Source of the DNA: an uncultured Ruegeria sp.
GTDB lineage: Bacteria > Pseudomonadota > Alphaproteobacteria > Rhodobacterales > Rhodobacteraceae
DNA length: 64,000 nucleotides
Direction of reading: 5' to 3'
Assembly: GCF_947500045.1 (NCBI RefSeq)
Contig: NZ_CANMQQ010000004.1
Location: forward strand, 243,128 to 307,127
The number at the start of each line of letters is the position of its first letter. Position 1 is the first letter of the stretch. Of the stretch, positions 6,990 through 18,734 are shown one piece after another. The position numbers and the translations under genes are program-made. A model generated the notes under the pieces. That model had not been told where the DNA came from, did no database searches, and saw only the letters and a program-made list of their open reading frames with translations.

Positions 6990-7089
6990 GGGTCGATCTC
7001 CTTAGCGCAAAGGCTTTGACAGTGCCCGCCGCTTGTGGCAGGTGACCTGAATCATCGATGAGATTCACCTGATATCAAGGGGATTTGAT

Positions 7090-7413
7090 ATGCCCAAGGA
7101 AGAATGGGGCGTAAAGCGTGTCTGCCCGACCACCGGCAAACGCTTTTATGACCTGAACAAGAACCCGATCGTCAGCCCCTATACCGGCGAGATCGTTGAA
7201 TTGGAAACCGGCAAGAGCCGGATGATCGCAGCAGACGCCGAAGACGCAGCATCGGTCAAAGCACGCGAGGCTTCGTCGGATGAAGAGATCGTTCTGGACG
7301 ATGACGATAGCGTAGATGTCGAACTGGACGACGATCTACTGGACGACGAAGACGACAGCGATAACGTGCCTCTGGACGATATCAAGGACATGTCGTCAGA
7401 AGACGAAAACTAA
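7090..7413 (+). CDS. TIGR02300 (FYDLN_acid) family protein with an acidic tail
   Basis: N-terminus KRVCPTTGKRFYDLNKNPIVSPYTG followed by an Asp/Glu-rich tail. Confidence 0.75.
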   Translation: MPKEEWGVKRVCPTTGKRFYDLNKNPIVSPYTGEIVELETGKSRMIAADAEDAASVKAREASSDEEIVLDDDDSVDVELDDDLLDDEDDSDNVPLDDIKDMSSEDEN

Positions 7414-7551
7414 TGGTTTCCGGGGCGGCTCGTGCCGCCTCGTCCAACCTGCGTTGCCGACGCGAACTTTTTCGCCGAATTCAATTTTAATACTTGAACT
7501 CGTGTGCGCCGTCTCATAAATGTCCGGCCACCGCTTCGGCGGTACCTGTAT

Positions 7552-7627
<76 letters not shown>

Positions 7628-7664
7628 AATCCTAACAGAACAACTAGATAGCAAGCATTAGAGC

Positions 7665-7688
7665 GGTGTGACACACAGGTGTGACACA
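7665..7688 (+). promoter_or_regulatory. Tandem 11-bp repeat GGTGTGACACA x2 (13-bp period); putative arm-type recombinase/regulator sites just upstream of int
   Basis: Copies at 7665-7675 and 7678-7688. A related pair with the same 13-bp period occurs at 16344-16366. Confidence 0.5.
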
Positions 7689-7690
7689 AA

Positions 7691-9436
7691 ATGAAGCTGC
7701 ATGCGTATCTCTCACTGTCCCGACATGGCATCTACTACTTTCGTTGGCCACTACCCGACACAAGACCAAAACCCCACACCAGACCAAACACCACACGTAA
7801 GACCCTTCGGGTGTCATTGCGTACGAGATGCCCTAAAGAGGCTGGAACTCTGGCACGGCGTCTTGCAGTGTGCGGCGACACAATAACAAGGCACATAGAA
7901 GTATCGGGCATGAACCACGGCGAACTGCGCACAAAGGTGCATGAGCACTTCACGGAAGTACTAAAGAAGGCAAAGGCACGTAGGGATGAACTCGGCCCCT
8001 ATTCCGAGCTAGAGAAGGAACGCATCGCCGACACCATCCGCCACCATGAAGCGGGCAATGAAGACTACTGGGACCTGCTTGGCAGAGACTACGCCCGCTC
8101 AGAACTTGATAAGTTTTGTAACGGCGCGGGGGTTGAGCAGCCCAAGACGCGCGAAGACGCCTTTCTGATTTTAGGTGAAATTAAGAAAGCTCAGTTGGCA
8201 CTGGCCAATGCTTTACTGGAACACGATAAGACTTTTGAGAAATACGATTTTGGCACGCAGCTCAGCACGCTTGTGAACGCCCCAGAGAGCGGTCAGCCTA
8301 GTTCCGGCACTGTCCCAGCTAAAGTTGCGAAGAAGCCCACAGACGCGCTTTCCAGTCCGCTCCTATCGATCCTGTTTGCTGAGAGAAAAGCTGAGGCGGA
8401 ACAGACGAGCCAATGGTCAGACAAGCTGCTGAACGACTATCAGGCTTGGACAGACCTCTTCATAGAGTTGCAAGGCGACCGTCCGGTTCTAGACTACAAA
8501 AAACCGGACGCACGCGACTTTAAGAATGTCCTGATCGAGCTTCCAAGCAACAGGAATAAACTACCGCAAACAATTGGCCTAACGCCTAAGGAAGCCATAC
8601 AAGCAGCTAAAGACCACGGTCTGCCAACGCTATCCGTAAGTACAGTCAACAAGGCCTTGGGAAGGCTGCAAGGAATATGGAATTGGGCGGACAAACAGTT
8701 GGACGAAGAGGTCGCAGACATCTTTGGACCGATGAAGATAGCTGACAACAACAACGCCAGAAACCAACATGACCCGTTTAGCAAAGAGCAACTGCAAGAC
8801 ATCTTCAACAGCCCACTGTACACCGGATGCAAGTCTAAGCGGTTCCGCAGTGAGGCGGGAGATACAGACCTGAGCGAAACCAGTTGGTATTGGCTTCCAC
8901 TACTGGGCCTATGGACAGGCGCACGACTAAATGAATTGTGCCAGTTGCGCGTTGACGACATTGACCAAGAAGAGGGCGTACCCCTAATTCGGATACAAGA
9001 AGGCGACGAAGACCAACGCGTCAAGTTCGGCAAAAGCAGACTTATTCCCATACACCCCGAGTTAGTCCGGCTTGGCTTCCTCCGCTTCGTACAGGCTCGG
9101 CGACAGACAGGCTACGAGCGGATATTCCCTGAACTAAAGTTGGGAGCGACAGGCTACTACTCAGATCAAGCCAGCAAAGACTTTAACCGCTACATCGACA
9201 GAATTGGCGCGAAGACGGCCAAGACCTCTTTCCACTCCTTCCGCCATAACTTCAAAGATGCTTGCCGTCATGCTGGTGTACAACCTGACATCAATGACAT
9301 CCTCTTGGGTCATGCGCTGCCCGGTATGGCGGGGCGCTATGGCGACGGCAGCGTACCTTTGCCGGTTCTGTACGAAGCCATCTGCAAAGTCGCGCACAGA
9401 GAGTTGTTTTTAGAGCACATCAAAGGGTATCGCTAA
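7691..9436 (+). CDS. int: Tyrosine-type site-specific integrase (long, 581 aa)
   Basis: C-terminal catalytic region has GARLNELCQL (Arg), HSFRHNFKDA (H-x-x-R), LLGH and GRYGDG (Tyr). The N-terminus GIYYFRWPLP is typical of island integrases. The gene abuts attL. Confidence 0.9.
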   Translation: MKLHAYLSLSRHGIYYFRWPLPDTRPKPHTRPNTTRKTLRVSLRTRCPKEAGTLARRLAVCGDTITRHIEVSGMNHGELRTKVHEHFTEVLKKAKARRDELGPYSELEKERIADTIRHHEAGNEDYWDLLGRDYARSELDKFCNGAGVEQPKTREDAFLILGEIKKAQLALANALLEHDKTFEKYDFGTQLSTLVNAPESGQPSSGTVPAKVAKKPTDALSSPLLSILFAERKAEAEQTSQWSDKLLNDYQAWTDLFIELQGDRPVLDYKKPDARDFKNVLIELPSNRNKLPQTIGLTPKEAIQAAKDHGLPTLSVSTVNKALGRLQGIWNWADKQLDEEVADIFGPMKIADNNNARNQHDPFSKEQLQDIFNSPLYTGCKSKRFRSEAGDTDLSETSWYWLPLLGLWTGARLNELCQLRVDDIDQEEGVPLIRIQEGDEDQRVKFGKSRLIPIHPELVRLGFLRFVQARRQTGYERIFPELKLGATGYYSDQASKDFNRYIDRIGAKTAKTSFHSFRHNFKDACRHAGVQPDINDILLGHALPGMAGRYGDGSVPLPVLYEAICKVAHRELFLEHIKGYR

Positions 9437-9463
9437 CTTGGGTGGTGGGGGGCCAATTGATGG

Positions 9464-10489
9464 ATGTCATTCCATATTGCATCCAGACGTAACATAGTGT
9501 TGTCACTGCTAAACAACTGGAAGACGAGGGAAGCAGTGGAATACGATGAAGCCACCGTTCGGTTCAATCAAATTTTCCATCCCGGACTGATGGAAGAAAA
9601 CATGGCTGTAGTCGCTGAGAACAAGAGGTTCGTTTACTACACGTCTGCCGATACTGCGATGAAGGTTCTGCGTAACCAAGAACTGTGGTTCAGAAACGCG
9701 ACGGCTATGAACGACTTCTCGGAGATATCATATGGACTACACTTAATCCGAGCCGTTTTCTCCGGGCCTGAAGGCCAAAGGTTCCGAGAGGCCGTTGAGG
9801 ACATTTTTCCGGGCACCATTGAAAAAGCCGACGAGCTTCTTGCCGGCTGGGAGCGTGACTGGCAGTTTGAAACGTACATCGCATGTGTTTCACTCCACAA
9901 TCCAGAAGAAGACAAGCGGGGGCGGCTTTCAATGTGGCGCGCCTACGGGGATACCGCGCTTGTCGTAAAAAACACGCCTTTGACCGCAATTACCGACCTG
10001 CTGGCCGTATACTCAATTCCAGTATTGTATTTATCCGAGGAAGACCTGACCGCACACCTTGCATTGATAACAAATGGTATTCTGATCAATCGGAAATACT
10101 TGCAGGGTTTAGGGCAGGAAAAACTGGTGGCCTACATTCACAATATGCTGTTTCGTTTCGCAATTGCGACGAAGCACCCTGGCTTCCGGGAAGAGAAGGA
10201 GTGGAGACTGTTCTATCGCCCAACAGAAGCGAAAAGTCCTGGTATGACCGAAGAGATTGTTGTCCTTAACGGCGTGCCCCAGAAAGTTTACAAGCTAAGA
10301 TTGGCGAACGACCCAGAGAATGGTTTGCATGGTGCAGACATTCCTTCACTTCTAGATCGAGTTATAGTTGGGCCTACAGAGTTTCCTTATGTAAGCCATG
10401 GTGCATTCGTAGAAGTGCTTGAGGGTTTAGGTGTTCCGGAAGCTCACTCGAAAGTCATCTTGTCCGACATTCCTCTCCGCGTCGGTTGA
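9464..10489 (+). CDS. DUF2971-like protein of unknown function
   Basis: FVYYTSADTAMKVLRNQELWFRNATAMNDFSEISYG matches the remembered DUF2971 N-terminal signature (HYTS...NDP.E). An alternative start exists at 9590. Confidence 0.6.
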   Translation: MSFHIASRRNIVLSLLNNWKTREAVEYDEATVRFNQIFHPGLMEENMAVVAENKRFVYYTSADTAMKVLRNQELWFRNATAMNDFSEISYGLHLIRAVFSGPEGQRFREAVEDIFPGTIEKADELLAGWERDWQFETYIACVSLHNPEEDKRGRLSMWRAYGDTALVVKNTPLTAITDLLAVYSIPVLYLSEEDLTAHLALITNGILINRKYLQGLGQEKLVAYIHNMLFRFAIATKHPGFREEKEWRLFYRPTEAKSPGMTEEIVVLNGVPQKVYKLRLANDPENGLHGADIPSLLDRVIVGPTEFPYVSHGAFVEVLEGLGVPEAHSKVILSDIPLRVG

Positions 10490-10654
10490 GCGGGCCGCTA
10501 GCAGTGAGTATATTTCATCGAATTTCCAAACTTCTGGCGAATTTTTTCGAGCCCGTATCTATCGTATTCTTTAGGCAAGTTCCCCCATAGGGCACGGCAA
10601 CTGACGCTTGATCGACTTAGGCGTGACTGGGATGTATCTCTAGGCCCTGCCCCA

Positions 10655-10749
10655 GAGACACGACTGACGCATACGCAAATTGTGTCTCACATATATTGAC
10701 TTTGCCTTTTGCGACAGTATGTGTCTCAATATCTAAAACCTTGAGAGAC
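10655..10749. promoter_or_regulatory. res-like recombination/operator region upstream of the serine recombinase
   Basis: Two inverted-repeat pairs of the half-site GTGTCTC: GAGACAC (10655-61) then 20 bp then GTGTCTC (10682-88), and GTGTCTC (10721-27) then 15 bp then GAGAGAC (10743-49). The region ends 10 bp before the ATG. Confidence 0.45.
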
Positions 10750-10759
10750 GGAACAGATC

Positions 10760-11320
10760 ATGCTTGTTGGCTATGCTAGGACTTCCACTTTGGATCAAAC
10801 GGCTGGGCTTGATGCTCAACTACGGGAACTGAAAAAGGCCGGGTGCGAGAAGGTATTCACCGAGCAGGTATCCTCAGTGGATGTGAGAGCGCGTGAGAAG
10901 CTCGCAGAAGCACTGAACTTCATCCGGGAAGGCGATCACCTAATAGTCACCAAACTGGACCGTCTGGCGCGCTCCATGGCTCACCTGATGGAAATCCGCA
11001 GCCAGCTTGATGTCGTTGGCGCACACTTAACGATCTTGGGGTTAAGTCTCGACACTTCTACGGCCCAAGGGAAGCTGATGTTGAACCTGTTGGGAAGCGT
11101 TGCCGAGTTTGAGCGTGAGATTATGCTGGAACGTCAGCGTGAAGGAATTGCCAAGGCCAAAGCCGCCGGAAAGTACAAGGGGCGCAAACCAACTGCGTTG
11201 GCAAAGTCGGACGAGGTACTTGCTCTGGCAGGTAAAGGCGTCGGTGCTACCAAGATCGCTAAACACCTCGAAATCAGCCGCGCATCGGTATACCGGATAC
11301 TCAATGCAGGCCAAAGCTGA
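10760..11320 (+). CDS. Small serine recombinase (resolvase/invertase family)
   Basis: MLVGYARTSTLDQ carries the catalytic Ser context. The protein also has LDRLARS, an E-helix (GSVAEFEREIMLERQREGI) and a C-terminal HTH (GATKIAKHLEISRASVYRIL). Confidence 0.92.
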   Translation: MLVGYARTSTLDQTAGLDAQLRELKKAGCEKVFTEQVSSVDVRAREKLAEALNFIREGDHLIVTKLDRLARSMAHLMEIRSQLDVVGAHLTILGLSLDTSTAQGKLMLNLLGSVAEFEREIMLERQREGIAKAKAAGKYKGRKPTALAKSDEVLALAGKGVGATKIAKHLEISRASVYRILNAGQS

Positions 11321-11473
11321 CCGCTGCTACCCCATTTGTTGGAGGACACGAGGGGTGTATATCCGTCCCTGAACAAATGTACGCTTGTGCCGGGTCATCT
11401 ATCTTCTTTGTAATTCATGTGCAAAAATGTGTATCTAGGCTTACCCCTCCCTCATTTGAGTAATAAACCGGTT

Positions 11474-11567
11474 AGACAGATGCAAAAAACGTCATCTGTC
11501 TGCCGCTGCACGGTTAGTTATAGATTGCATTTACCGAATGTGTGATCTGTCTGCCGCTGCACGGTTA
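11474..11567. repeat. Perfect 9-bp-stem hairpin plus a 2-copy tandem repeat (about 51-bp unit)
   Basis: Hairpin AGACAGATG (11474-82) / CATCTGTCT (11493-501). ATCTGTCTGCCGCTGCACGGTTA occurs exactly twice (11494-11516 and 11545-11567), each copy followed by a related ...TAT.AGATT tail. Confidence 0.8.
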
Positions 11568-11569
11568 TG

Positions 11570-11945
11570 TATTAGATTATACACAAGATTGAATACCAGT
11601 ATGTACCAATGCGGTATGATATACCTGATACGAACACATAGATTGTGAACATAGGTCACTATCATAGTTGATACACATAGTATGCCTACCGGGTGTATAT
11701 ACCGAGTATAATACTCCATGGTTAGTAGCTGGATAGTATACCCTAAATATATAAATAGATGTATATACATAGTAAATCTAATAATATGATGCATAGTATA
11801 TGAACACTTATTGTATATACCTAGTATAGCAAATAAATATCTATACACAGCACCTTGGTGCAAATCACCTGTATAGTTAGCAGTGGTAAACCACCCAATT
11901 GATATACTTGGTATATGCAATAGATGAGCAGATAGCTTATCTATC
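11570..11945. repeat. Extremely AT-rich non-coding block with many short related motifs
   Basis: One sampled row (11761-11820) has 13/60 G+C. The palindrome GTATATAC occurs at 11695, 11761 and 11813. The (C)ATAGTATA-type core occurs at about 11679, 11705, 11735, 11771, 11795 and 11823 (24-36 bp spacing). The block ends in the palindrome CAGATAG-cttat-CTATCTG (about 11929-11947). Confidence 0.7.
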
Positions 11946-12022
11946 TGTTTTAAATATCTTCCGGCCTGCCCGCATGAAAACTTGTAGGCTTAGCAAAAGC
12001 AAGACTAGGGAGCTGTATAGTG

Positions 12023-12238
12023 TTAACTGACTATGCCAGAAAGGACGAAGCAAAAGAGATAGGAGCCAATCGGATACTCGGGACTTCCAGAGCGTCCTGA
12101 TCTCAATTCCGGCAGAAGGAGCAAGTTACCCCAATCAATCGGCCTGCCTGCCCTAGTCCCTTTCGCGTAATTCCCCAATAAGTTTGACGGAATGGTCTTC
12201 AAGGCTCGATGGCCCTCGGCGTTCTGTATGTCACTCAT
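12023..12238 (-). CDS. Possible small protein (71 aa) translationally coupled to the GIY-YIG gene
   Basis: Its ATG overlaps the upstream stop (GATGAGTGA, 8-nt overlap). No recognisable motif, so coding status is uncertain. Confidence 0.3.
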   Translation of the reverse strand: MSDIQNAEGHRALKTIPSNLLGNYAKGTRAGRPIDWGNLLLLPELRSGRSGSPEYPIGSYLFCFVLSGIVS

Positions 12239-12854
12239 CCTCTTCGTCGTTGTCGTCTGCCTGATGTGTACTAAGCCGCTCTGACAGTGTTTGTCCGTCT
12301 AGCCCCCAGTATTGCCAACCGTTGACAGACTTCCACGTGTAACCCTCACGGTGCAGCAAGATCAGTGCAGCTTTACTGACACTCATCGGTTCGCCTTCGA
12401 ATAGTATCTTCTTCGGTGCCACGACTGTAGCAGTGATGCTGTCGTCGCCGGAATATGTAAGCACATCACCGACTTTCACACCTGCATTGTCGAACACATA
12501 GTTACGCTTCTTTGACACCGCTTTCGATAGGGCCTCGATGCCTGTGTCGTCCTCTGCGATATCATCCTTAGGTGTGACGTCTTTGCCGCCAGTCAATTTC
12601 ATGGCGGCAATCACGCGCTGTGGATCGATCTTAAAGAACTCGCGGTTTGGACGAGTACGATGGTCTGCGAAGGCCTGGTGTAGAAGTCTTTCTGCTTCAG
12701 CTTCATTCGGAACATCCACCGCATACACACAACGAAACGGTAAAGGAACGCTGGTATTGTCCAATTGCCGGAGCCGTTGAGTGAGGTCGATAGTCCTTCC
12801 GATCTTCACATAGCCGTCCAAAGCCGGATTAGTCAGCACATATACTATTGGCAC
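12231..12854 (-). CDS. GIY-YIG superfamily protein of the T5orf172/MUG113 type with an uncharacterised C-terminal domain
   Basis: IVYVLTNPALDGYVKIGRTIDLTQRLRQLDNTSVPLPFRCVYAV...EAERLLHQAFADHRTRPNREFFKI matches the T5orf172 pattern (Y.L......KIG.T....R...L......PF.........E..LH..F.....EFF). Confidence 0.75.
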   Translation of the reverse strand: MPIVYVLTNPALDGYVKIGRTIDLTQRLRQLDNTSVPLPFRCVYAVDVPNEAEAERLLHQAFADHRTRPNREFFKIDPQRVIAAMKLTGGKDVTPKDDIAEDDTGIEALSKAVSKKRNYVFDNAGVKVGDVLTYSGDDSITATVVAPKKILFEGEPMSVSKAALILLHREGYTWKSVNGWQYWGLDGQTLSERLSTHQADDNDEEDE

Positions 12855-12866
12855 CGTTGAGGCTCT

Positions 12867-13487
12867 CTATTTGTTTTGATTGCGCGCGACTTGCTTGGCT
12901 TCATATTGCTCCCAGACATTCATTCGTCCCTTTTGCCGAGCGTCAGCCAGCCACAACTTCTTTCTTGCATCAGGTAGTTCAAGCGCGCTGTACTTACCAC
13001 CTGAGAATTTAGGCCAATCTATTGCCATCCCGAGTTTGACCATTTCCGCAGACAGGTCGCGCCCATCTTCAAGGTAGCACTTTGCCACCGTACGACCGTG
13101 GGTATCCTCAGCAGTAACCACTGCCCTCACCTTTTGCCCCTTACAAAGGGATACCAAAGCCCACTTGGCCTTCTTGCCGTACGGGTGGTTAATCTCAGGT
13201 GCATCTACGCCAAACAAGCGCACTTGTGTTTTCTGTATTTTTATCGTGTCGCCGTCCACAACATATGCTGAGCCTTCCAGTACCTTTTCTTTGGGTTCTG
13301 CTACGGCACTGCCAGCATCGAAACGCGGGGGCTGCTGAACGACTTGCGGGCGGGATGCACCCAATCTCGGCTTCAAGTCCGAAGTTGTTTGATAGGTCGG
13401 CTTAGTGTTTCTGTCGGGCTGGCGTTTGCTAAGCATAACGAACAGCACAACTACCCCTACAATGATGAGCAGTATCAATACTTCCAC
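12867..13487 (-). CDS. Membrane-anchored staphylococcal-nuclease (SNase/thermonuclease)-like nuclease
   Basis: N-terminal TM helix (MEVLILLIIVGVVVLFVML) followed by KRQPDR. The SNase core is VVDGDTIKI...VRLFGVDAPE...HGRTVAKCYL...LSAEMVKLGMA. It lies 12 bp upstream of the GIY-YIG gene on the same strand. Confidence 0.8.
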   Translation of the reverse strand: MEVLILLIIVGVVVLFVMLSKRQPDRNTKPTYQTTSDLKPRLGASRPQVVQQPPRFDAGSAVAEPKEKVLEGSAYVVDGDTIKIQKTQVRLFGVDAPEINHPYGKKAKWALVSLCKGQKVRAVVTAEDTHGRTVAKCYLEDGRDLSAEMVKLGMAIDWPKFSGGKYSALELPDARKKLWLADARQKGRMNVWEQYEAKQVARNQNK

Positions 13488-13615
13488 AGGATCGGGCCTT
13501 GTTAATTGTTTAGTTCAAAACAAATGCACAGAAGTCCGCAAACACACTGCACGTTATGGTTGATACTGGTGTGAGTGAGAGGTTTTATCCAGTGGAAAAT
13601 GGCCTAAATCACGAC

Positions 13616-13647
13616 TTGAACATCCGCCTTGGACCCAAGGCATAACT
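13616..13647 (+). promoter_or_regulatory. Possible MerR/CueR-type promoter for the copper module
   Basis: TTGAAC (13616-21), a 19-20 bp spacer containing the dyad GCCTTGG-AC-CCAAGGC (13626-41), then a CATAACT -10-like element. The long spacer with a central dyad is the MerR-family architecture. Confidence 0.35.
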
Positions 13648-13714
13648 GGTCGCTACAAAATACCTCGTGTACCAACGTTGTAATGTGTCTTCCTCTGCAT
13701 TAGCGTCCCGAACC

Positions 13715-14080
13715 ATGGTCATAAGGCGATACTCCCGTGTTCTGCTAGTCAGCGTTCTGGTCATACTGACCGGGTTTGGCACCATTGCTCAGGCCCTATC
13801 AATTGGCTGCATCGGCCACCACTGTGAAGGCCAAATGCAATCGGCGACACACACTGTCGAAGCAATGAGCAGTGGCGATATCACAACCTCAACTACCCAC
13901 CATGACCCGGACAGTTCAGGAACCGGGGATTGTAATCCCGCTTTCTGTCAAGCAGTTGTATTGTTGTCCCAGAACCATGAAGCCGAGCAGGATCAACTAG
14001 ATATTGACCCCGAGTTCCAGAGTAGAGCCCAAGCCAAGCTGAATGAACCAGACAGCCCTTACAGGCCCCCTGACCTTTAA
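13715..14080 (+). CDS. Small exported/membrane-anchored Cys/His-containing protein of unknown function
   Basis: Hydrophobic N-terminus (RVLLVSVLVILTGFGTIAQA), His/Cys-rich stretches (CIGHHCEG, THHDPDSSGTGDCNPAFC), and first position in the copper cluster. The start is ambiguous (GTG 13667 or ATG 13715). Confidence 0.5.
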   Translation: MVIRRYSRVLLVSVLVILTGFGTIAQALSIGCIGHHCEGQMQSATHTVEAMSSGDITTSTTHHDPDSSGTGDCNPAFCQAVVLLSQNHEAEQDQLDIDPEFQSRAQAKLNEPDSPYRPPDL

Positions 14081-14176
14081 AGCAGCGTAAATCCTTGCGG
14101 ACGTAAGCGAACGGCACGTGCGGCTGTTCGCGATGTTTCGCAGCGTTACCAGCTTCCAGAATGTCAGGACTAATCC

Positions 14177-14608
14177 ATGAAAAAAAGATACCTACTAGTC
14201 GGCGTATGCACCGTCGCTGCCGTCGCCGCTTTCATAACTCTTCGGCCCGGTTCAATCGAAGAGGCCGCACCACAGGAACCACTTGAAGGCGATGCTATGG
14301 TCGCAATTCAGATGCCGCCCATCGAGGGTAATGCCGCAATCGGCCAGCGTGTCTTTGAGGTCTCCTGCGCCTCTTGCCACGGTGGCAATGCGGTCGGTGT
14401 AGAAGGCGCAGGACCGCCTCTGATCCACAAAATATACGAACCCAGCCACCATGCTGATGAAGCCTTTCAGAGAGCTGTTTCACAAGGTGTAAGAAGCCAC
14501 CATTGGCAGTTTGGCGACATGCCGCCCGTGGAAGGTCTGACGCGAGGTGACGTTGCTATGGTGATCGCGTACATTCGTGAAGTTCAACGTGCCAACGGGA
14601 TAAATTGA
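14177..14608 (+). CDS. Class I c-type cytochrome (exported)
   Basis: Signal peptide, CASCHG haem-binding motif, distal Met context (GDMPP), AGGA RBS. Confidence 0.85.
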   Translation: MKKRYLLVGVCTVAAVAAFITLRPGSIEEAAPQEPLEGDAMVAIQMPPIEGNAAIGQRVFEVSCASCHGGNAVGVEGAGPPLIHKIYEPSHHADEAFQRAVSQGVRSHHWQFGDMPPVEGLTRGDVAMVIAYIREVQRANGIN

Positions 14609-14618
14609 GGACAGCACC

Positions 14619-14960
14619 ATGAAAAAGTTCATAACGCTCGCACTCATGGCTGCTCTTCCCAGCGGCGTACTGGCGCATTCCAAGGTCGAAGAAACAACCC
14701 CTGCCGACGGAGTTACAATATCCACTGTGCCCGCTGAAATTGGCCTCAACTTCTCTAAGAGCATTCGGCTGACACTGATAGAAATGGCCCATGAAGAACA
14801 CTCGGCAATAAGCCTAGAATTGGGCGACCAGACAAGTTTTGGTCAGGAGTTCACGTTCCCACTTCCGAGCAATGGAACGGGCACCTATGTCATCGAATGG
14901 CGAGGCTTAGGTGAAGACGGCCATGCGATGCAGGGCGATTTTTCCTTTACCGTGGAATGA
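14619..14960 (+). CDS. copC: Copper resistance protein CopC
   Basis: Signal peptide ending in ...LAHSKVEETTPADG (mature N-terminal His). About 110 aa, and it overlaps copD by ATGA. Confidence 0.85.
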   Translation: MKKFITLALMAALPSGVLAHSKVEETTPADGVTISTVPAEIGLNFSKSIRLTLIEMAHEEHSAISLELGDQTSFGQEFTFPLPSNGTGTYVIEWRGLGEDGHAMQGDFSFTVE

Positions 14961-15829
14961 GCATGCCAGACATTTGGGGTATTGCCGCAGTTCTCGCAAA
15001 GCTAGGGCTCTACATCGGCTTTGCGGGCTCCACCGGGCTTATGATTGTTAGCTGCCTCTATTCCAGCTTTGTCGCACCGGTACACCGAGTGATGAAGCGC
15101 CAAGCTAGGGCCTTAGCGTGCTTTGCATTCGCCGCAACGGTAGTTGGCTTCATGCTTCGTGGAGCCGCCTTAACGGGCGGAGTTGACGGCATGGTAGACC
15201 CGGAGATGCTTGGTTTACTTTGGCAGACCCCCGTAGGCGACGTACTAGTTTTCCGGCTTGTCGGCGCTGCATTGATCCTTGTGGGATTATCTATTTCTCG
15301 ATTTGGCCACTGGATCGAGCTCGTGGGTGGTACATTGGCTATGTGGTCCTTTGTGCAGATAGGGCACGTGCCGGAACTAGAGAGTGTTGGCGTCCAACTC
15401 TTGCTCCTATTGCACCTGCTATGTGTAGCCTTCTGGGTCGGCATCTTTAGCCCGCTACGGAGTATGGCTCTAATGCCTGAACACCTGACTAATGCAGCTG
15501 AACTAGGGCATAGGTTTGGGCAAGCTGCTACATTGGTTGTGCCAACTTTAATCGTAGCAGGTCTCTGGATGGCTTGGTTGCTTGTTGGCAATCTCCATGG
15601 GCTCTTGTTCACTGGCTACGGGCAAGCACTGTTGTTTAAAGTGTTTCTTGTCTCGCTGCTGTTGATCCTCGCCGCTGCGAACAAGCTCCGATTTGTTCCG
15701 GCGATGCAAAGTGGAGATGCAATGGCCGCTCAACGCCTAGCCCGATCCATCGAGGTTGAGGCAATAGTCGTATTAGCGGTTCTGGCGACAACGGCGACAC
15801 TCACGAGCGTTCTAACGCTTCCGAATTGA
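14957..15829 (+). CDS. copD: Copper resistance protein CopD (inner membrane)
   Basis: 290-aa polytopic membrane protein, translationally coupled to copC. Confidence 0.8.
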   Translation: MSMPDIWGIAAVLAKLGLYIGFAGSTGLMIVSCLYSSFVAPVHRVMKRQARALACFAFAATVVGFMLRGAALTGGVDGMVDPEMLGLLWQTPVGDVLVFRLVGAALILVGLSISRFGHWIELVGGTLAMWSFVQIGHVPELESVGVQLLLLLHLLCVAFWVGIFSPLRSMALMPEHLTNAAELGHRFGQAATLVVPTLIVAGLWMAWLLVGNLHGLLFTGYGQALLFKVFLVSLLLILAAANKLRFVPAMQSGDAMAAQRLARSIEVEAIVVLAVLATTATLTSVLTLPN

Positions 15830-15844
15830 GGTAGATAGGTAGAG

Positions 15845-16279
15845 ATGAACAAACACCTTTGCGCGCTCGCTATATGCAGCATTGGCACTAGCGTCGCTGC
15901 AGATCATGAGTTGTTAGATAGAAACCTAGCGAATGGACAGGAACTCTACACAGAGCATTGTGCCTCATGCCATGGAGTTAATCTGGAAGGCCAACCCAAC
16001 TGGCAAACACCCAATGATGACGGAGTGTTACCTGCACCACCACACGACGTGACAGGGCACACATGGCACCATGATAACCAGCTACTGTTCGAGTACACCA
16101 AACTAGGTGGTGCAAACGCATTGGCAGCACGCGGTATTGAAGACTTCAACAGTGGCATGCCGGGCTTTGAGGGCACTTTGACTAACGAAGACATATGGGA
16201 CGTGCTGGCCTACATACGCTCCACTTGGCCCGACGATGTTCAGCAAATGCAGGCCAGTCGCAACCTTCCGCACCAGTAG
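15845..16279 (+). CDS. c-type cytochrome (exported)
   Basis: Signal peptide and a CASCHG motif. It is the last gene before attR. Confidence 0.85.
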   Translation: MNKHLCALAICSIGTSVAADHELLDRNLANGQELYTEHCASCHGVNLEGQPNWQTPNDDGVLPAPPHDVTGHTWHHDNQLLFEYTKLGGANALAARGIEDFNSGMPGFEGTLTNEDIWDVLAYIRSTWPDDVQQMQASRNLPHQ

Positions 16280-16343
16280 AAGACAGTAGTCTGGTGTAGG
16301 TGTGGGTATGCAGAGTTCGACGCAGCATGTTGCACACTTCAAA

Positions 16344-16366
16344 GTGTGACACTAAGGTGAGACACA
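16344..16366 (+). promoter_or_regulatory. Tandem GTGTGACAC / GTGAGACAC pair (13-bp period) near attR; putative arm-type sites
   Basis: Same motif, orientation and period as 7665-7688. GTGAGACACA (16357-66) is also the exact reverse complement of 10681-10690. Confidence 0.5.
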
Positions 16367-16426
16367 GTACAAACCAACACACTACAATAGTGTTTACTAT
16401 CAGTATATTAGGTGTTCGACGGCGTT

Positions 16427-16449
16427 TCCCCTAGGCTCCACCAAATCCT
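16427..16449 (+). repeat. attR core (displaced copy of the tRNA-Ala 3' end)
   Basis: Identical 23 bp to 7611-7633. Weaker similarity extends upstream (GGTGTTCGAC at 16411-20 versus GGGGTTCGAC in the tRNA). Confidence 0.85.
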
Positions 16450-16681
16450 CTCAGTGATCCGCTATCCATATTTGTTCCTGTTCGACAGAGGAAGCTACCT
16501 TTGGGTTCGAACCGGCCCATTTTTCAGATCTTAGAACACGAGAAAATCTCATGCCGAACCTCCAGCAAAGTTGAGAATTTTGGTTCAATGGCAGAACAAG
16601 ACGTGCGCATTTTTGTTGTCAGTAGTTCCGCTTGATGAGCTGAGTCGCTACGATAGTGAATGAGGCAACAGGCAGGTTAAC

Positions 16682-16987
16682 ATGATGCGCAGTGCAATCT
16701 TCTTACCCGTAGCGGCATTTTTCTTGGGCGCCTTTGTCCAAGCTGAACCTACGGCGGCGGCTTCTCTTGGACGATACGAGGTTTTTGGCGTTGAAGATGG
16801 GGGCATGCTGAAATTGCGTGCAGGGCCTGGAACAGGTTTCAACGTGATCGTGGGTCTTCCAAATGGAACCGCTTTGCGAGTTCACAGTTGCGAGCAGACC
16901 GGCGGCACACGTTGGTGCCGCGTGTCCTTGCAACGCGCACGTGGGCTAAAGGGATATGTCTCGTGGGCATATTTGCGAAAAGTCTGA
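16682..16987 (+). CDS. Secreted bacterial SH3-domain protein
   Basis: Signal peptide, and LKLRAGPGTGFNVIVGLPNGTALRV...WCRVSL...KGYVSWAYL is SH3b-like. Confidence 0.6.
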   Translation: MMRSAIFLPVAAFFLGAFVQAEPTAAASLGRYEVFGVEDGGMLKLRAGPGTGFNVIVGLPNGTALRVHSCEQTGGTRWCRVSLQRARGLKGYVSWAYLRKV

Positions 16988-17048
16988 CTTAATACTGGTT
17001 AGCGTCGCCGTTTTGGTCGCACCCACAAAATGACGACGCAACACCACC

Positions 17049-18734
17049 TCAGAACAACTGCAAATCCTTCGCACCGCTTTGAATTTCCGCAAAGTTCGGC
17101 ATGTTCTGGACAACCAAAGGTGCGTTTGGCGCGCCCGGCATTGCCACTGTTGGCTGGGCCGCCACCGCCTTGCCAAAGGCCGGTTTCTCCAACTCTCCTC
17201 GGATGTCGCGTAGCAACGTTTTATGATCCGGCATTGCCTTAAGTATATGCGCAAGGTCCACTTTTGCGCCCTTCCACCACTGGAACCAGATCGGTTTCTT
17301 CAACGGCCGGATACGATCTCGGATACCAGTGCCATAGCCTGTGTCATAGACCTGCTTGCCCAGAAGGACCGTCTGGTAGACGCGGAAATTAAATAGGGTT
17401 GCGAACTCGATATCGTGTTCCATCGGCAGGCGGTGTTGCCACAGCTCCAAGTTCTCGGCCAGCCGATCCGGTATCTTCATTTCGGTGCGCGCATCGATCC
17501 AGTATTGATCATCCGTTCGGTTGCCCAATCGGTAGTGCAGGCAGATGAAATCCAACACCTCATCATAGAGCTTGTTCATCTGCTGGTTATATCTGTTGCG
17601 CAGTGAAGGCTCGATATCTCGTGTGGGAAGATGCTCGGCGAACCAGCGTATCGCATGATCTATCATATGGATCGCGGTGCTTTCCAATGGCTCAATAAAC
17701 CCGCCTGAGAGCCCAATCGCCACACAGTTCTTGACCCACGCATTGCGCACGCGCCCGATGCGCATCGGAATGACGCGCGGCGTTAATCCCTTGCCGCTAT
17801 CACCCAACCATTCAAGGTATTCGTCTGCAGCCTGATCATCGGTGCGATGCGCGGACGAATACACATAGCCCGTTCCCACCCGGTTATAGAGCGGCACCCG
17901 CCATGTCCAACCTGCGCCAAGAGCGGTTGACCGTGTGACGCTTTCAATCTTCTCTGGATCAGGATGTTCGATCTGCAACGCCATGGCGCGATCGTTTGGC
18001 AGATATTCCGAATAGTCCATAAATGGCTCACCAAGAGCCTTGTTGATGATCAAACCCCGGAACCCTGTGCAATCTATGACCATCTCAATGTCATGACGGC
18101 CTTTGCGTTCCAGCATCAGATGGCTGACATTGCCCTGTTCATCCAACTCAACCGATTGCACCTCATCCTGGATATGCTCAACACCGCGCTTGGCGCAAAC
18201 CTTGGTTAGCATACCCGCGAACTTCACTGCATCCAGATGATAAGCATAGCCAAATCGTTGTTCAAATTCAGGCTGACCCAATTGCCGCGCGCCCTTACAC
18301 AGGCGGGCTAGATCGTCATGCGGCGAGATGGATTGCGTAAAATCCCGATCCCCGTTGCCGAATCGCAGGAAATACTCGGCGGCCTCCAACCCCTCCAACA
18401 TCTGGCCGTGGGCAAATGGATTTACATAATCGATGCGATTGCCCTTGGCGTCCTTGTTCCAATTGCAGAACTTCACACCTAGTTTGAATGAGGCGTTGGT
18501 CTCGCGGAAGAAATCCCGCTCTGAAATACCGGCCTGGCGGAGCGTAACAGGCATGCGTGGCACAGTGGCTTCGCCCACACCCACAGTCGAGATATTGGGG
18601 CTTTCGATCAGACATATACGCGGTCGATCCTTTGGCGCCGACGTGCGCGAAAACACCATATCCAGGATTAAAGCGGTCATCCATCCTGCTGTACCACCAC
18701 CTACGATGGTGATTTTACGCAAACGATTATTCAT
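17049..18734 (-). CDS. Flavin-dependent (tryptophan-type) halogenase family protein
   Basis: GGGTAGW FAD motif, GVGEATVP, FKLGVKF (conserved Lys context) and GWTWRVPL (the WxWxIP motif). Confidence 0.85.
   Translation of the reverse strand: MNNRLRKITIVGGGTAGWMTALILDMVFSRTSAPKDRPRICLIESPNISTVGVGEATVPRMPVTLRQAGISERDFFRETNASFKLGVKFCNWNKDAKGNRIDYVNPFAHGQMLEGLEAAEYFLRFGNGDRDFTQSISPHDDLARLCKGARQLGQPEFEQRFGYAYHLDAVKFAGMLTKVCAKRGVEHIQDEVQSVELDEQGNVSHLMLERKGRHDIEMVIDCTGFRGLIINKALGEPFMDYSEYLPNDRAMALQIEHPDPEKIESVTRSTALGAGWTWRVPLYNRVGTGYVYSSAHRTDDQAADEYLEWLGDSGKGLTPRVIPMRIGRVRNAWVKNCVAIGLSGGFIEPLESTAIHMIDHAIRWFAEHLPTRDIEPSLRNRYNQQMNKLYDEVLDFICLHYRLGNRTDDQYWIDARTEMKIPDRLAENLELWQHRLPMEHDIEFATLFNFRVYQTVLLGKQVYDTGYGTGIRDRIRPLKKPIWFQWWKGAKVDLAHILKAMPDHKTLLRDIRGELEKPAFGKAVAAQPTVAMPGAPNAPLVVQNMPNFAEIQSGAKDLQLF

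What the first reader, a model, noticed from the sequence alone, without database searches (positions are those of the whole stretch)
12023..13487. Operon of a membrane-tethered SNase-like nuclease, a T5orf172/GIY-YIG protein and a coupled small ORF: a candidate defence or toxin module
- Seen directly: two tightly spaced minus-strand genes (12-bp gap), plus a third 71-aa ORF whose ATG overlaps the stop of the second gene.
- Gene 1 has one N-terminal TM helix followed by KRQPDR. The positive-inside rule therefore places the staphylococcal-nuclease domain in the cytoplasm.
- Gene 2 has the T5orf172/MUG113 flavour of the GIY-YIG fold plus an unrecognised roughly 100-aa C-terminal domain.
- Established: both folds are nucleases or nucleic-acid-binding modules recurrent in phage-host conflict loci.
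- Inference: a cytoplasm-facing, membrane-anchored non-specific nuclease needs regulation or immunity.
- Pairing it with a second nuclease-like protein on a mobile island, next to a peculiar repeat block, fits an abortive-infection or toxin-immunity system that I cannot match to a named system.
Basis: partly seen in the sequence, partly recalled or inferred. Interest (0 to 1): 0.65.

Follow-up and report, generated by a model that had tools for sequence, protein, structure and literature searches.

The report
Two nuclease genes on tRNA island
A small mobile island in a marine Ruegeria-type bacterium carries two closely spaced nuclease genes: a membrane-tethered staphylococcal-type nuclease, and a GIY-YIG/T5orf172 nuclease from an untested candidate anti-phage family. 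The two families almost never occur together elsewhere and the proposed third gene is not real, so this is a local pairing of two stand-alone genes, not a new multi-part system.

Summary
The two minus-strand genes are real, 12 bp apart, and both under purifying selection. The 71-aa third ORF is not a gene.

- **Gene 1 (12867-13487).** An SNase-fold nuclease with all catalytic and Ca2+-binding residues. It has an N-terminal TM helix and a very basic linker. This pattern is conserved across the 120 listed homologues and predicts a cytoplasm-facing domain.
- **Gene 2 (12231-12854).** It matches the PADLOC candidate family PDC-S57 over its full length (E 1.7e-70). Its "unrecognised" C-terminal domain is a divergent RAMA DNA-binding domain followed by an acidic tail. 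The T5orf172+RAMA fusion was already described in 2016.
- **Setting.** The pair is conserved cargo of a family of tRNA-Ala-associated integrative islands, here 7611-16454. It recurs with the same 12-bp spacing in Ruegeria meonggei, Roseovarius albus and one metagenome contig.
- **Co-occurrence.** Outside this lineage the families do not pair. None of 59 SNase loci has the T5orf172 gene, and none of 41 T5orf172 loci has an adjacent SNase. Neither family has a conserved partner or immunity gene.

Best reading: two independent stand-alone nucleases, at most one of them a plausible defence gene, sharing one small island operon. It is not a toxin-immunity or obligate two-gene system. Interest is modest.

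The parts
13488..13601 (-). Conserved upstream region of the operon (probable promoter and 5' UTR, with AAGG about 10 nt before the GTG start).
   Evidence: DNA homology to all four related loci begins at 13591-13601. Conserved blocks CACTGGATAAAAC, ATCAAC, TTTTGAAC and TTTACAAGG appear in a 5-way alignment. No promoter was called by the consensus scan.
12867..13487 (-). Gene 1: membrane-tethered SNase-family nuclease, 206 aa. TM helix at residues 2-20 (nt 13428-13484). Basic disordered linker at residues 21-68 (nt 13284-13427). SNase domain at residues 69-170 (nt 12978-13283). C-terminal helices at residues 171-206 (nt 12870-12977).
   Evidence: Pfam SNase E 1.8e-14. AF2 model has pLDDT 81, with helix 2-20 and residues 22-45 disordered. 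Foldseek top hits are all staphylococcal nuclease, E about 1e-7. D80, R90, D95, E98 and R132 align to SNase D21, R35, D40, E43 and R87 and are invariant in 22 homologues.
12855..12866 (-). 12-bp intergenic spacer containing GAGAG (probable ribosome-binding site of gene 2). No terminator lies between the genes.
   Evidence: Sequence. The same 12-bp gap occurs in L001, L003/L005 and L006. The terminator scan found nothing here.
12231..12854 (-). Gene 2: T5orf172 (GIY-YIG superfamily) nuclease plus RAMA-like DNA-binding domain plus acidic tail, 207 aa. A member of PADLOC PDC-S57. T5orf172 domain at residues 3-86 (nt 12597-12848). Low-confidence linker at residues 87-114 (nt 12513-12596). RAMA-like domain at about residues 115-197 (nt 12264-12512). 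Acidic tail ADDNDEEDE at residues 198-207 (nt 12234-12263).
   Evidence: Pfam. PADLOC PDLC05041 E 1.7e-70, profile positions 7-208 of 212. The C-terminal domain finds 475 representatives, often in tandem copies or fused to T5orf172, TIR, AIPR or GmrSD_N+HNH. The matched regions of P0241 and P0245 hit Pfam RAMA. Foldseek hits include CcrM 6pbd, Slx1 and the MPND-DNA complex 7ydw. Family invariants include Y5, G19, R27 and E72.
12023..12238 (-). ORF3 (71 aa): a chance ORF in non-coding DNA downstream of the operon. It is not part of the module.
   Evidence: Substitutions by codon position are 5/6/4, and the R. meonggei copy has an in-frame stop. It is absent from L001 and L006. No family match was found.
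7611..16454 (.). The 8.8-kb integrative island that carries the operon. attL lies in the tRNA-Ala 3' end (7611-7638) and attR at 16427-16454. It contains an integrase (7691-9436), a DUF2971 protein (9464-10489), a serine resolvase (10760-11320), an AT-rich repeat block (about 11490-11935), and a cytochrome c/CopC/CopD cluster (14177-16279).
   Evidence: tRNA. Direct repeat D4. Pfam on neighbours. Repeats. The island's right end (16344-16449) lies just upstream of the SNase gene in L005, L006 and L052, and about 1.5 kb upstream in L001.

Best explanation
The locus is a two-gene operon of two independent, stand-alone nucleases. Together they are the recurring cargo of a family of small tRNA-Ala-associated integrative islands in Ruegeria and Roseovarius.

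**Gene 2** is a T5orf172 (GIY-YIG superfamily) endonuclease joined to a RAMA DNA-binding domain and an acidic tail.
- It belongs to the PADLOC single-gene candidate family PDC-S57.
- It most likely acts alone as a restriction-like DNA endonuclease. RAMA would hold duplex DNA and the GIY-YIG-type site would cut it (inferred).

**Gene 1** is an active-site-intact, Ca2+-type staphylococcal-nuclease homologue.
- A single N-terminal helix anchors it in the inner membrane.
- By the positive-inside rule, the catalytic domain sits on a roughly 50-residue basic tether on the cytoplasmic side (inferred).
- No immunity partner exists. Its activity is therefore probably limited by membrane confinement and by low cytoplasmic Ca2+ (inferred).

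The two genes are co-expressed in this island lineage, but neither needs the other. ORF3 is not a gene.
For: **Shown**
- Domain and fold assignments for both proteins, with catalytic residues conserved in gene 1 and candidate GIY-YIG residues invariant in gene 2.
- Gene 2 matches PDC-S57 over its full length, E 1.7e-70.
- The RAMA link rests on relatives that hit PF18755 and on fold matches to CcrM and MPND. T5orf172-RAMA fusions were described by Iyer et al. 2016.
- T5orf172 nuclease activity has been shown experimentally for ICP1 Odn.
- The pair recurs with an identical 12-bp spacer in 4 loci with different flanks.
- dS is similar and large for both genes (0.67-1.13), with low dN/dS.

**Independence of the two genes**
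- None of 59 SNase loci with room downstream carries a T5orf172 homologue.
- None of 41 T5orf172 loci with room upstream carries an adjacent SNase.
- L052 has the same island type at the same tRNA-Ala site, with the SNase but no T5orf172 gene.
- Neighbours of the SNase family fall into 82 different Pfam families, with no conserved partner.
- T5orf172-RAMA relatives sit beside rplM-rpsI, in other mobile elements, or beside type I/III R-M genes.

**Topology**
- Charge statistics over the 120 listed homologues, with signal-peptide controls.
Against: - No activity, topology or phenotype has been measured for either protein. PDC-S57 is one of 145 explicitly untested candidates.
- The operon architecture has been kept through dS of about 1 in this lineage. 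That could mean cooperation rather than mere co-carriage.
- The direct Pfam RAMA score for the window protein itself is below reporting level.
- Characterised SNase homologues are extracytoplasmic, for example S. aureus Nuc2, shown by PhoA fusion. Two invariant cysteines, C115 and C137, could indicate a periplasmic disulfide.
- Very strong constraint on gene 2 (dN/dS 0.02-0.04) and its position after rplM-rpsI in five genomes are not typical of fast-evolving defence genes.
Confidence: 0.55

Rival explanations
1. The two genes form an obligate two-nuclease defence or abortive-infection system. The T5orf172-RAMA protein would sense or nick invading DNA. The membrane-tethered SNase would be the executioner, for example activated by Ca2+ influx.
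For: - Conserved operon with an identical 12-bp spacer in four loci with different flanks.
- Co-divergence to dS of about 0.7-1.1 with purifying selection on both genes.
- Location on an integrase-bearing island.
- Gene 2 is a defence candidate.
Against: - The families do not co-occur outside this lineage: 0 of 59 and 0 of 41 loci.
- A sister island keeps the SNase without T5orf172.
- PDC-S57 is defined as a single-gene candidate.
- The SNase has no convincing match to a PADLOC defence model. The only hit is a weak one, E 1.6e-5, to an SNc+LTD model.
Confidence: 0.15
2. Gene 1 is an ordinary extracytoplasmic nuclease anchored by a signal-anchor. It would serve extracellular DNA scavenging or act as a plasmid/ICE-type 'ParB/Nuc' nuclease, and would have nothing to do with gene 2.
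For: - Characterised SNase homologues act outside the cytoplasm. Nuc2 is a type II anchored enzyme.
- SNase-superfamily genes occur on at least 5000 plasmids, 78% of them conjugative.
- The Ca2+-dependent chemistry suits seawater.
- Two cysteines are invariant.
- SNase neighbours are mostly ordinary metabolic genes.
Against: - The N-terminus has no positive n-region and no AXA-type cleavage site.
- 107 of 110 homologues have at least 2 K/R right after the helix, and the linker carries +6.4 net charge. This should block translocation.
- Plasmid SNases that are exported look quite different, with classical signal peptides.
Confidence: 0.15
3. The genes serve the mobile element rather than the host. 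Gene 2 would be a selfish, free-standing homing-type endonuclease that spreads by cutting empty sites. Gene 1 would be an element-maintenance nuclease like the RP4 ParB nuclease that accompanies a resolvase.
For: - T5orf172 genes are typical free-standing homing-type endonucleases at recombination boundaries in phages (papers listed).
- Homology between loci breaks exactly at the gene 2 stop codon.
- Gene 2 relatives sit about 160 bp after the conserved rplM-rpsI genes in five genomes.
- Close SNase relatives occur on a 4.8-kb plasmid and beside a resolvase in a Tn3-family element.
- A resolvase lies about 900 bp from gene 2.
Against: - The resolvase is convergent, not co-operonic, and is absent from the other four loci.
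- No close relatives were found in viral contigs or phage genomes.
- No target site or empty-site comparison was made.
- That RP4 ParB is SNase-like is recalled from memory. The record could not be fetched.
Confidence: 0.12
4. It is a toxin-immunity or toxin-antitoxin module, with ORF3 (or gene 2) neutralising the SNase.
For: The ORFs are tightly packed and overlap, and a potentially toxic nuclease is present.
Against: - ORF3 is not under coding selection, is interrupted in R. meonggei, and is absent in two loci.
- The SNase occurs without gene 2 in all 59 other loci examined and in L052.
- No neighbour is conserved.
Confidence: 0.03

Closest known systems
PADLOC PDC-S57 (single-gene 'phage defence candidate', Payne et al. 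2024 preprint)
   Same: Gene 2 matches model PDLC05041 over the full length (E 1.7e-70), and three other PDC-S57 models more weakly. Distant relatives lie beside type I/III R-M genes, which fits the guilt-by-embedding origin of PDC families.
   Different: PDC-S57 is untested. Here the gene is downstream of an SNase gene on a tRNA island, and is not embedded in an R-M, BREX or DISARM system.
RAMA-domain restriction-type nucleases (Iyer, Zhang & Aravind 2016); RAMA domains of CcrM and MPND
   Same: The T5orf172+RAMA fusion is explicitly listed in that paper. The model matches CcrM 6pbd and the MPND-DNA complex 7ydw. As in MPND, an acidic stretch follows the domain, and there it inhibits DNA binding.
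   Different: The window protein does not reach the Pfam RAMA model directly, so it is a divergent subfamily. Preference for m6A is unproven even for MPND, and no methyltransferase is adjacent here.
ICP1 Odn (Gp88), a T5orf172-domain nuclease with proven activity
   Same: It has the same catalytic domain family. The catalytic Arg and Glu needed in Odn (E180A is inactive) have invariant counterparts in this family, candidates R27 and E72.
   Different: Odn is phage-encoded and uses a RepA_N-like domain for sequence-specific targeting of a satellite origin. Here the DNA-binding module is RAMA and the gene is bacterial.
Staphylococcus aureus Nuc2 (membrane-anchored SNase)
   Same: An SNase catalytic domain is held on the cytoplasmic membrane by a single N-terminal helix.
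   Different: Nuc2 is a type II signal-anchor protein with the enzyme outside the cell, shown by PhoA fusion. This family's charge distribution predicts the opposite orientation, and it has a long basic linker.
Plasmid-borne thermonuclease-family genes (annotated ParB/NucH; RP4 ParB nuclease, the latter from memory)
   Same: They are SNase-superfamily genes carried by mobile elements. At least 5000 plasmids have one. One relative is divergent from a resolvase in a Tn3-family element.
   Different: Enterobacterial examples have cleavable-type signal peptides and are at most 39% identical over the core. In the window the resolvase is not in the same operon.

Membership tests
SNase (PF00565, staphylococcal nuclease homologues) | Profile match above the curated cut-off | tested here: met
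   54.5 bits against a cut-off of 21.
SNase (PF00565, staphylococcal nuclease homologues) | OB-fold SNase structure | tested here: met
   AF2 pLDDT is about 90 over residues 70-170. The 50 listed Foldseek PDB hits are all staphylococcal nuclease, E about 1e-7, probability 1.00.
SNase (PF00565, staphylococcal nuclease homologues) | Ca2+ ligands and catalytic residues (D21, D40, E43, R35, R87 in S. aureus numbering) | tested here: met
   D80, D95, E98, R90 and R132 align to them and are invariant in 22 homologues.
SNase (PF00565, staphylococcal nuclease homologues) | Ca2+-dependent DNA/RNA hydrolysis | not testable with these tools
   This needs an enzyme assay.
T5orf172 / GIY-YIG superfamily | Profile match above the curated cut-off | tested here: met
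   T5orf172 scores 62.8 bits against 20 and MUG113 scores 61.1 against 22.3. The generic GIY-YIG model scores only 15.5, below its cut-off of 22.6.
T5orf172 / GIY-YIG superfamily | Catalytic Arg and Glu retained | tested here: inconclusive
   R27 and E72 (plus Y5, Y15, G19) are invariant or nearly so in 17 homologues. The fold matches the Slx1 GIY-YIG domain. No residue-level alignment to a characterised enzyme was made.
RAMA (PF18755) | Profile match to the Pfam model | tested here: inconclusive
   The window protein gives no hit at E<=1, and only 1 of 31 domain relatives hits. Regions of P0241 (36.9 bits against a cut-off of 35.2) and P0245 (34.6 bits) that match this domain do hit RAMA. P0068, 65% identical, carries a precomputed PF18755 hit.
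RAMA (PF18755) | Fold shared with the solved RAMA domains (CcrM, MPND) | tested here: met
   Foldseek hits CcrM 6pbd at rank 1 (probability 0.99) and MPND 7ydw (probability 0.97, TM-score normalised to target 0.59). Both are RAMA structures. Overall model confidence is moderate (pLDDT 70), but 80-90 in this domain.
PADLOC PDC-S57 | Full-length match to the family HMM (single-gene candidate, no partner required) | tested here: met
   PDLC05041 E 1.7e-70, profile positions 7-208 of 212.
PADLOC PDC-S57 | Demonstrated anti-phage activity | not testable with these tools
   The 145 PDC systems are described as untested. No paper mentions PDC-S57.
Multi-gene defence system (SNase + T5orf172) | The genes co-occur across unrelated lineages | tested here: not met
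   0 of 59 SNase loci and 0 of 41 T5orf172 loci show the pairing. It is confined to one island lineage.
Toxin-antitoxin / toxin-immunity pair | A conserved adjacent cognate neutralising gene | tested here: not met
   ORF3 is not coding and is absent in L001 and L006. No neighbour of the SNase family is conserved.
RP4/RK2-type par region (resolvase + SNase-like ParB in one operon) | The nuclease is co-operonic with a serine resolvase and res site | tested here: not met
   The resolvase at 10760-11320 is convergent and about 900 bp from the operon's end. It is absent from L001, L005, L006 and L052. The definition of the family is from memory.
Nuc2-type surface-attached SNase | Type II orientation (N-in, catalytic domain outside) | tested here: not met
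   In silico only. There is no K/R before the helix in 102 of 110 homologues, and a mean of 4.4 K/R in the 15 residues after it. An experimental test is still needed.

The most novel reading that the evidence does not exclude
The SNase family is a previously undescribed class of cytoplasm-facing, membrane-tethered, Ca2+-gated nucleases. They would be harmless at resting cytoplasmic Ca2+ and fire when the membrane is breached or DNA enters: phage injection, holins, GTA uptake or conjugation. That would explain why no immunity gene is needed. In this island lineage the SNase would have been coupled to a RAMA-guided GIY-YIG nuclease to form a two-tier anti-invader cassette.
Probability: 0.12. Interest if true: 0.65.

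Novelty: new member of a known kind. Interest (0 to 1): 0.3.

Why it matters
- **Annotation.** The work settles what the locus is. It removes a phantom gene, names the 'unknown' domain (RAMA), places gene 2 in a catalogued but untested defence-candidate family, and defines the 8.8-kb island that carries it.
- **The more interesting residue.** This is the SNase family, with over 2000 members detected, mostly marine Rhodobacterales. Its conserved reversed charge pattern predicts a non-specific nuclease on the cytoplasmic face of the membrane with no immunity partner.
- **If confirmed.** It would raise the question of how cells tolerate such an enzyme, and whether Ca2+ or membrane confinement gates it.
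- **A ready test case.** The island lineage offers natural variants for testing PDC-S57: the pair, the SNase alone in L052, and gene 2 relatives alone in other genomes.

Tried and rejected
- Megablast of the region against plasmids and complete E. coli genomes found no match.
- Viral-contig scans for both proteins found no relatives. Phage GenBank hits to gene 2 are all below 60% identity, 46% or less among those listed, and mostly cover the T5orf172 domain only.
- NCBIfam gave only sub-threshold SNase hits and nothing for gene 2.
- PADLOC on eight neighbouring proteins of the window gave no hits. The island is therefore not a recognisable multi-system defence island.
- Rfam (E<=0.1) over 7000-17000 found only the tRNA.
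- The promoter/terminator scan found nothing above shuffle expectation.
- Literature searches for 'PDC-S57', for 'EcnA' nuclease, for SNase+anti-phage+transmembrane, and for RP4 ParB returned nothing usable.
- The RP4/RK2 record BN000925 is not in the collection, so the ParB comparison could not be made.
- A profile of the C-terminal domain found no solved structure by sequence. The RAMA assignment rests on transitive and fold evidence.
- A conserved partner for the SNase family was sought by clustering neighbours. Only a minority fabA/fabB/fabI neighbourhood emerged. PADLOC on 113 nearest neighbours gave a few scattered hits (MADS, AriA, PD-T4-3, AbiLi) and no pattern.
- ORF3 as antitoxin was rejected.
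- A link to the adjacent resolvase and repeat block was rejected as part of the module, because it is absent from the other loci.
Full report
**Observation**

The window contains two minus-strand ORFs at 12867-13487 (206 aa, GTG) and 12231-12854 (207 aa, GTG). They are separated by 12 bp that include GAGAG. A third ORF at 12023-12238 (71 aa) overlaps the end of gene 2 by 8 nt.

Pfam gives SNase for gene 1 (54.5 bits, cut-off 21). For gene 2 it gives T5orf172 and MUG113 (62.8 and 61.1 bits). ORF3 has no match in Pfam, PADLOC or NCBIfam. The closest homologues of both proteins come from Ruegeria and other marine Rhodobacterales.

**ORF3 is not a gene**

The whole stretch 13601-11795 aligns without gaps to Ruegeria meonggei at 95.7% identity. 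Differences by codon position are:
- SNase: 7/3/22.
- Gene 2: 0/0/10, with identical protein.
- ORF3: 5/6/4, with 10 of 71 residues changed.

The R. meonggei copy of ORF3 has an in-frame stop at codon 46. In two other loci that carry both real genes (metagenome contig L001 and Roseovarius albus L006), DNA homology to the window stops exactly at the gene 2 stop codon, 12231. tblastn finds no ORF3 there.

**Gene 1**

AlphaFold2, run on a 22-sequence alignment, gives the following:
- an N-terminal helix at residues 2-20;
- a disordered stretch at residues 22-45;
- a confident SNase OB-fold at residues 69-170, followed by two helices.

All listed Foldseek PDB hits are staphylococcal nuclease. A profile alignment puts D80, R90, D95, E98 and R132 on S. 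aureus D21, R35, D40, E43 and R87. These columns are invariant in the family. The enzyme is therefore predicted to be an active, Ca2+-type nuclease.

- 110 of the 120 have the hydrophobic segment.
- 102 of those have no K/R before it. The N-terminus is typically just Met-Glu.
- 107 have at least two K/R in the 15 residues after it (mean 4.4).
- The roughly 50-residue linker is rich in R, P and K, with mean net charge +6.4.

As a control, SNase-superfamily genes from enterobacterial plasmids start with classical signal peptides, MINIRMTKLAIFPLAVFLLTTPLTSIA and MIKYIFALTLLLSGSVCA. The positive-inside rule therefore predicts N-out/C-in, with a cytoplasm-facing nuclease. This is the opposite of the experimentally established type II orientation of S. 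aureus Nuc2. It remains a prediction. Two invariant cysteines (C115, C137) leave a periplasmic disulfide conceivable.

**Gene 2**

PADLOC model PDLC05041 (PDC-S57) matches over its full length with E 1.7e-70. PDC systems are 145 untested candidates derived by 'guilt-by-embedding' in known defence systems. No paper mentions PDC-S57.

The roughly 100-aa C-terminal region was searched alone against 1.84 billion representatives. It finds 475 proteins at E<=0.001. In them the domain occurs singly or in tandem (up to 5 copies). Besides T5orf172, it is fused to TIR, AIPR, GmrSD_N+HNH and HAD domains.

Two links tie this domain to RAMA:
- The matched regions of P0241 and P0245 hit Pfam RAMA (36.9 and 34.6 bits; cut-off 35.2).
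- The AF2 model (pLDDT 70 overall, 80-90 in this domain) matches CcrM 6pbd, Slx1 (for the GIY-YIG half) and the MPND-DNA complex 7ydw. CcrM and MPND are the two solved RAMA domains. Both contact the DNA backbone without base specificity.

The direct Pfam hit on the window protein is absent, so this is a divergent RAMA subfamily. Iyer et al. already listed T5orf172-RAMA fusions among restriction-type nucleases.

The family ends in an acidic tail (ADDNDEEDE here). In MPND an acidic region next to RAMA inhibits DNA binding. Autoinhibition here is an inference. T5orf172 nuclease activity, dependent on a conserved Glu, has been shown for phage ICP1 Odn. R27 and E72 are invariant here.

**Do the two genes belong together?**

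They recur as a pair, with the same 12-bp spacer, in three other places:
- R. meonggei, where the SNase is 96% identical and gene 2 100%.
- Metagenome contig L001, at 84% and 95%.
- Roseovarius albus L006, at 69% and 96%.

Each has different flanking genes. For window-L001 and window-L006, dS is 0.67-0.94 for the SNase and 0.82-1.13 for gene 2. dN/dS is 0.09-0.21 and 0.00-0.04 respectively. So the linkage is old and both genes are functional.

Outside this lineage the pairing disappears:
- 45 further loci (L007-L051) from other genomes carry gene 2 relatives at 29-72% identity. 41 of them have at least 700 bp upstream, and none has an adjacent SNase. One has a distant SNase-superfamily ORF 4.6 kb away.
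- 83 loci carry SNase relatives at 52-81% identity. 59 of them have at least 700 bp downstream, and none has a gene 2 relative.

The SNase family has no conserved neighbour. Nearest neighbours fall into 82 Pfam families, mostly metabolic. There is a minority fabA/fabB context, 3 integrases and 2 plasmid Rep proteins. PADLOC gives only scattered hits among 113 neighbours.

Gene 2 relatives occur in several settings:
- about 160 bp downstream of rplM-rpsI in five Rhodobacterales;
- in another element with DUF6641 and a small tyrosine recombinase in four genomes;
- beside type I or type III R-M genes in four of ten distant loci sampled.

**The island**

The 3' end of tRNA-Ala (7611-7638) is repeated at 16427-16454. 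This bounds an 8.8-kb island. In order it contains:
- an integrase with DUF6538 and Phage_integrase domains;
- a DUF2971 protein;
- a serine resolvase;
- an AT-rich repeat block;
- gene 2 and gene 1;
- a cytochrome c/CopC/CopD cluster.

The island's right-end sequence (16344-16449) lies about 200-230 bp upstream of the SNase promoter region in R. meonggei, R. albus and Ruegeria sp. L052, and about 1.5 kb upstream in L001. Integrase fragments lie just beyond gene 2 in L001 and L006. The copper cluster and the DUF2971/resolvase/repeat segment therefore appear to be additions in the window, or losses elsewhere.

L052 sits at the same YgjP/tRNA-Ala site and has the SNase but no gene 2. Thus the SNase, usually together with gene 2, is the recurring cargo of this island family.

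**Interpretation**

The best-supported reading (confidence about 0.55) is two independent stand-alone nucleases sharing a small island operon. Gene 2 is a PDC-S57-type, RAMA-guided GIY-YIG endonuclease, plausibly restriction-like. Gene 1 is a membrane-tethered SNase that probably faces the cytoplasm. No immunity gene exists for it in any context. It must therefore be self-limited, possibly by membrane confinement and by the low cytoplasmic Ca2+ that SNase chemistry requires (inference).

The rivals are:
- an obligate two-nuclease defence system (0.15);
- an ordinary extracytoplasmic nuclease unrelated to gene 2 (0.15);
- selfish or element-maintenance roles, meaning a homing-type endonuclease plus a ParB-like nuclease (0.12);
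- a toxin-antitoxin module (0.03).

**Novelty**

- Gene 2 is a new member of a catalogued candidate family with a previously described architecture.
- Gene 1 is one of more than 2000 detected relatives, usually annotated 'thermonuclease family protein'. A 96%-identical copy is already public.
- The pair is a local combination.
- The one unusual feature is the conserved inverted-topology signature of the SNase family. No description of it turned up in the literature searches.

Interest is modest at 0.3.

Noticed in passing
window 7611-7638 and 16427-16454: A 23-nt exact (28-nt, 93%) direct repeat of the tRNA-Ala 3' end bounds an 8.8-kb integrative island. The integrase (DUF6538 + Phage_integrase, 581 aa) lies at 7691-9436.
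   Followed up: yes
window 11490-11935: An AT-rich block lies between the resolvase and gene 2. It holds a 31-nt direct repeat (11491-11521 and 11542-11572), three or four copies of TGTATATACCnAGTA, and several inverted repeats. The segment 11795-12022, which includes the block's gene-2-proximal part (11795-11935), is 99.6% identical to R. meonggei, although the neighbouring SNase gene differs by 5%, so the region is a recombination mosaic. Its function (res or other binding sites, or an origin) is unknown.
   Followed up: partly
L009, L010, L011, L013, L015 (about 160 bp after rpsI): In five Rhodobacterales genomes the T5orf172-RAMA gene sits immediately downstream of the ribosomal protein genes rplM-rpsI. 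This is an odd, conserved position for a supposed defence gene and is reminiscent of free-standing homing endonuclease insertion.
   Followed up: partly
L001 1-221 and 3409-3942; L052 4547-4695, 5854-5963, 8281-10597: Related islands are decayed or tandemly arrayed. L001 has a second att plus island start next to the island end, and a truncated 184-aa integrase. L052 has integrase fragments, an IS (rve) insertion, and the SNase without gene 2 at the same tRNA-Ala/YgjP site.
   Followed up: partly
window 23661-26189 (+): An 842-aa protein with leucine-rich repeats and a TIR domain lies outside the island. It has an NLR/TIR-like immune architecture but no PADLOC match.
   Followed up: no
window 9464-10489 (+): A DUF2971 protein is encoded directly after the integrase. 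It has no PADLOC hit and its function is unknown.
   Followed up: no
L135 (Paracoccus ferrooxidans pFER1, 4.8 kb) and L136 (Shinella plasmid): A 75%-identical SNase core is one of six genes on a tiny plasmid, next to BrnT/BrnA. Another relative is divergent from a resolvase inside a Tn3-family element. SNase-superfamily genes hit at least 5000 plasmids, 78% of them conjugative.
   Followed up: partly
window 13667-14080 (+) and 14177-16279: Divergent from the SNase gene is a 137-aa ORF with an N-terminal hydrophobic segment and no family match. It is followed by a cytochrome c/CopC/CopD/cytochrome c cluster. This segment is absent from the related islands, so it looks like a later insertion.
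   Followed up: partly
window 17049-18734 (-): A tryptophan-halogenase-family gene (E 7e-131) lies just outside the island.
   Followed up: no
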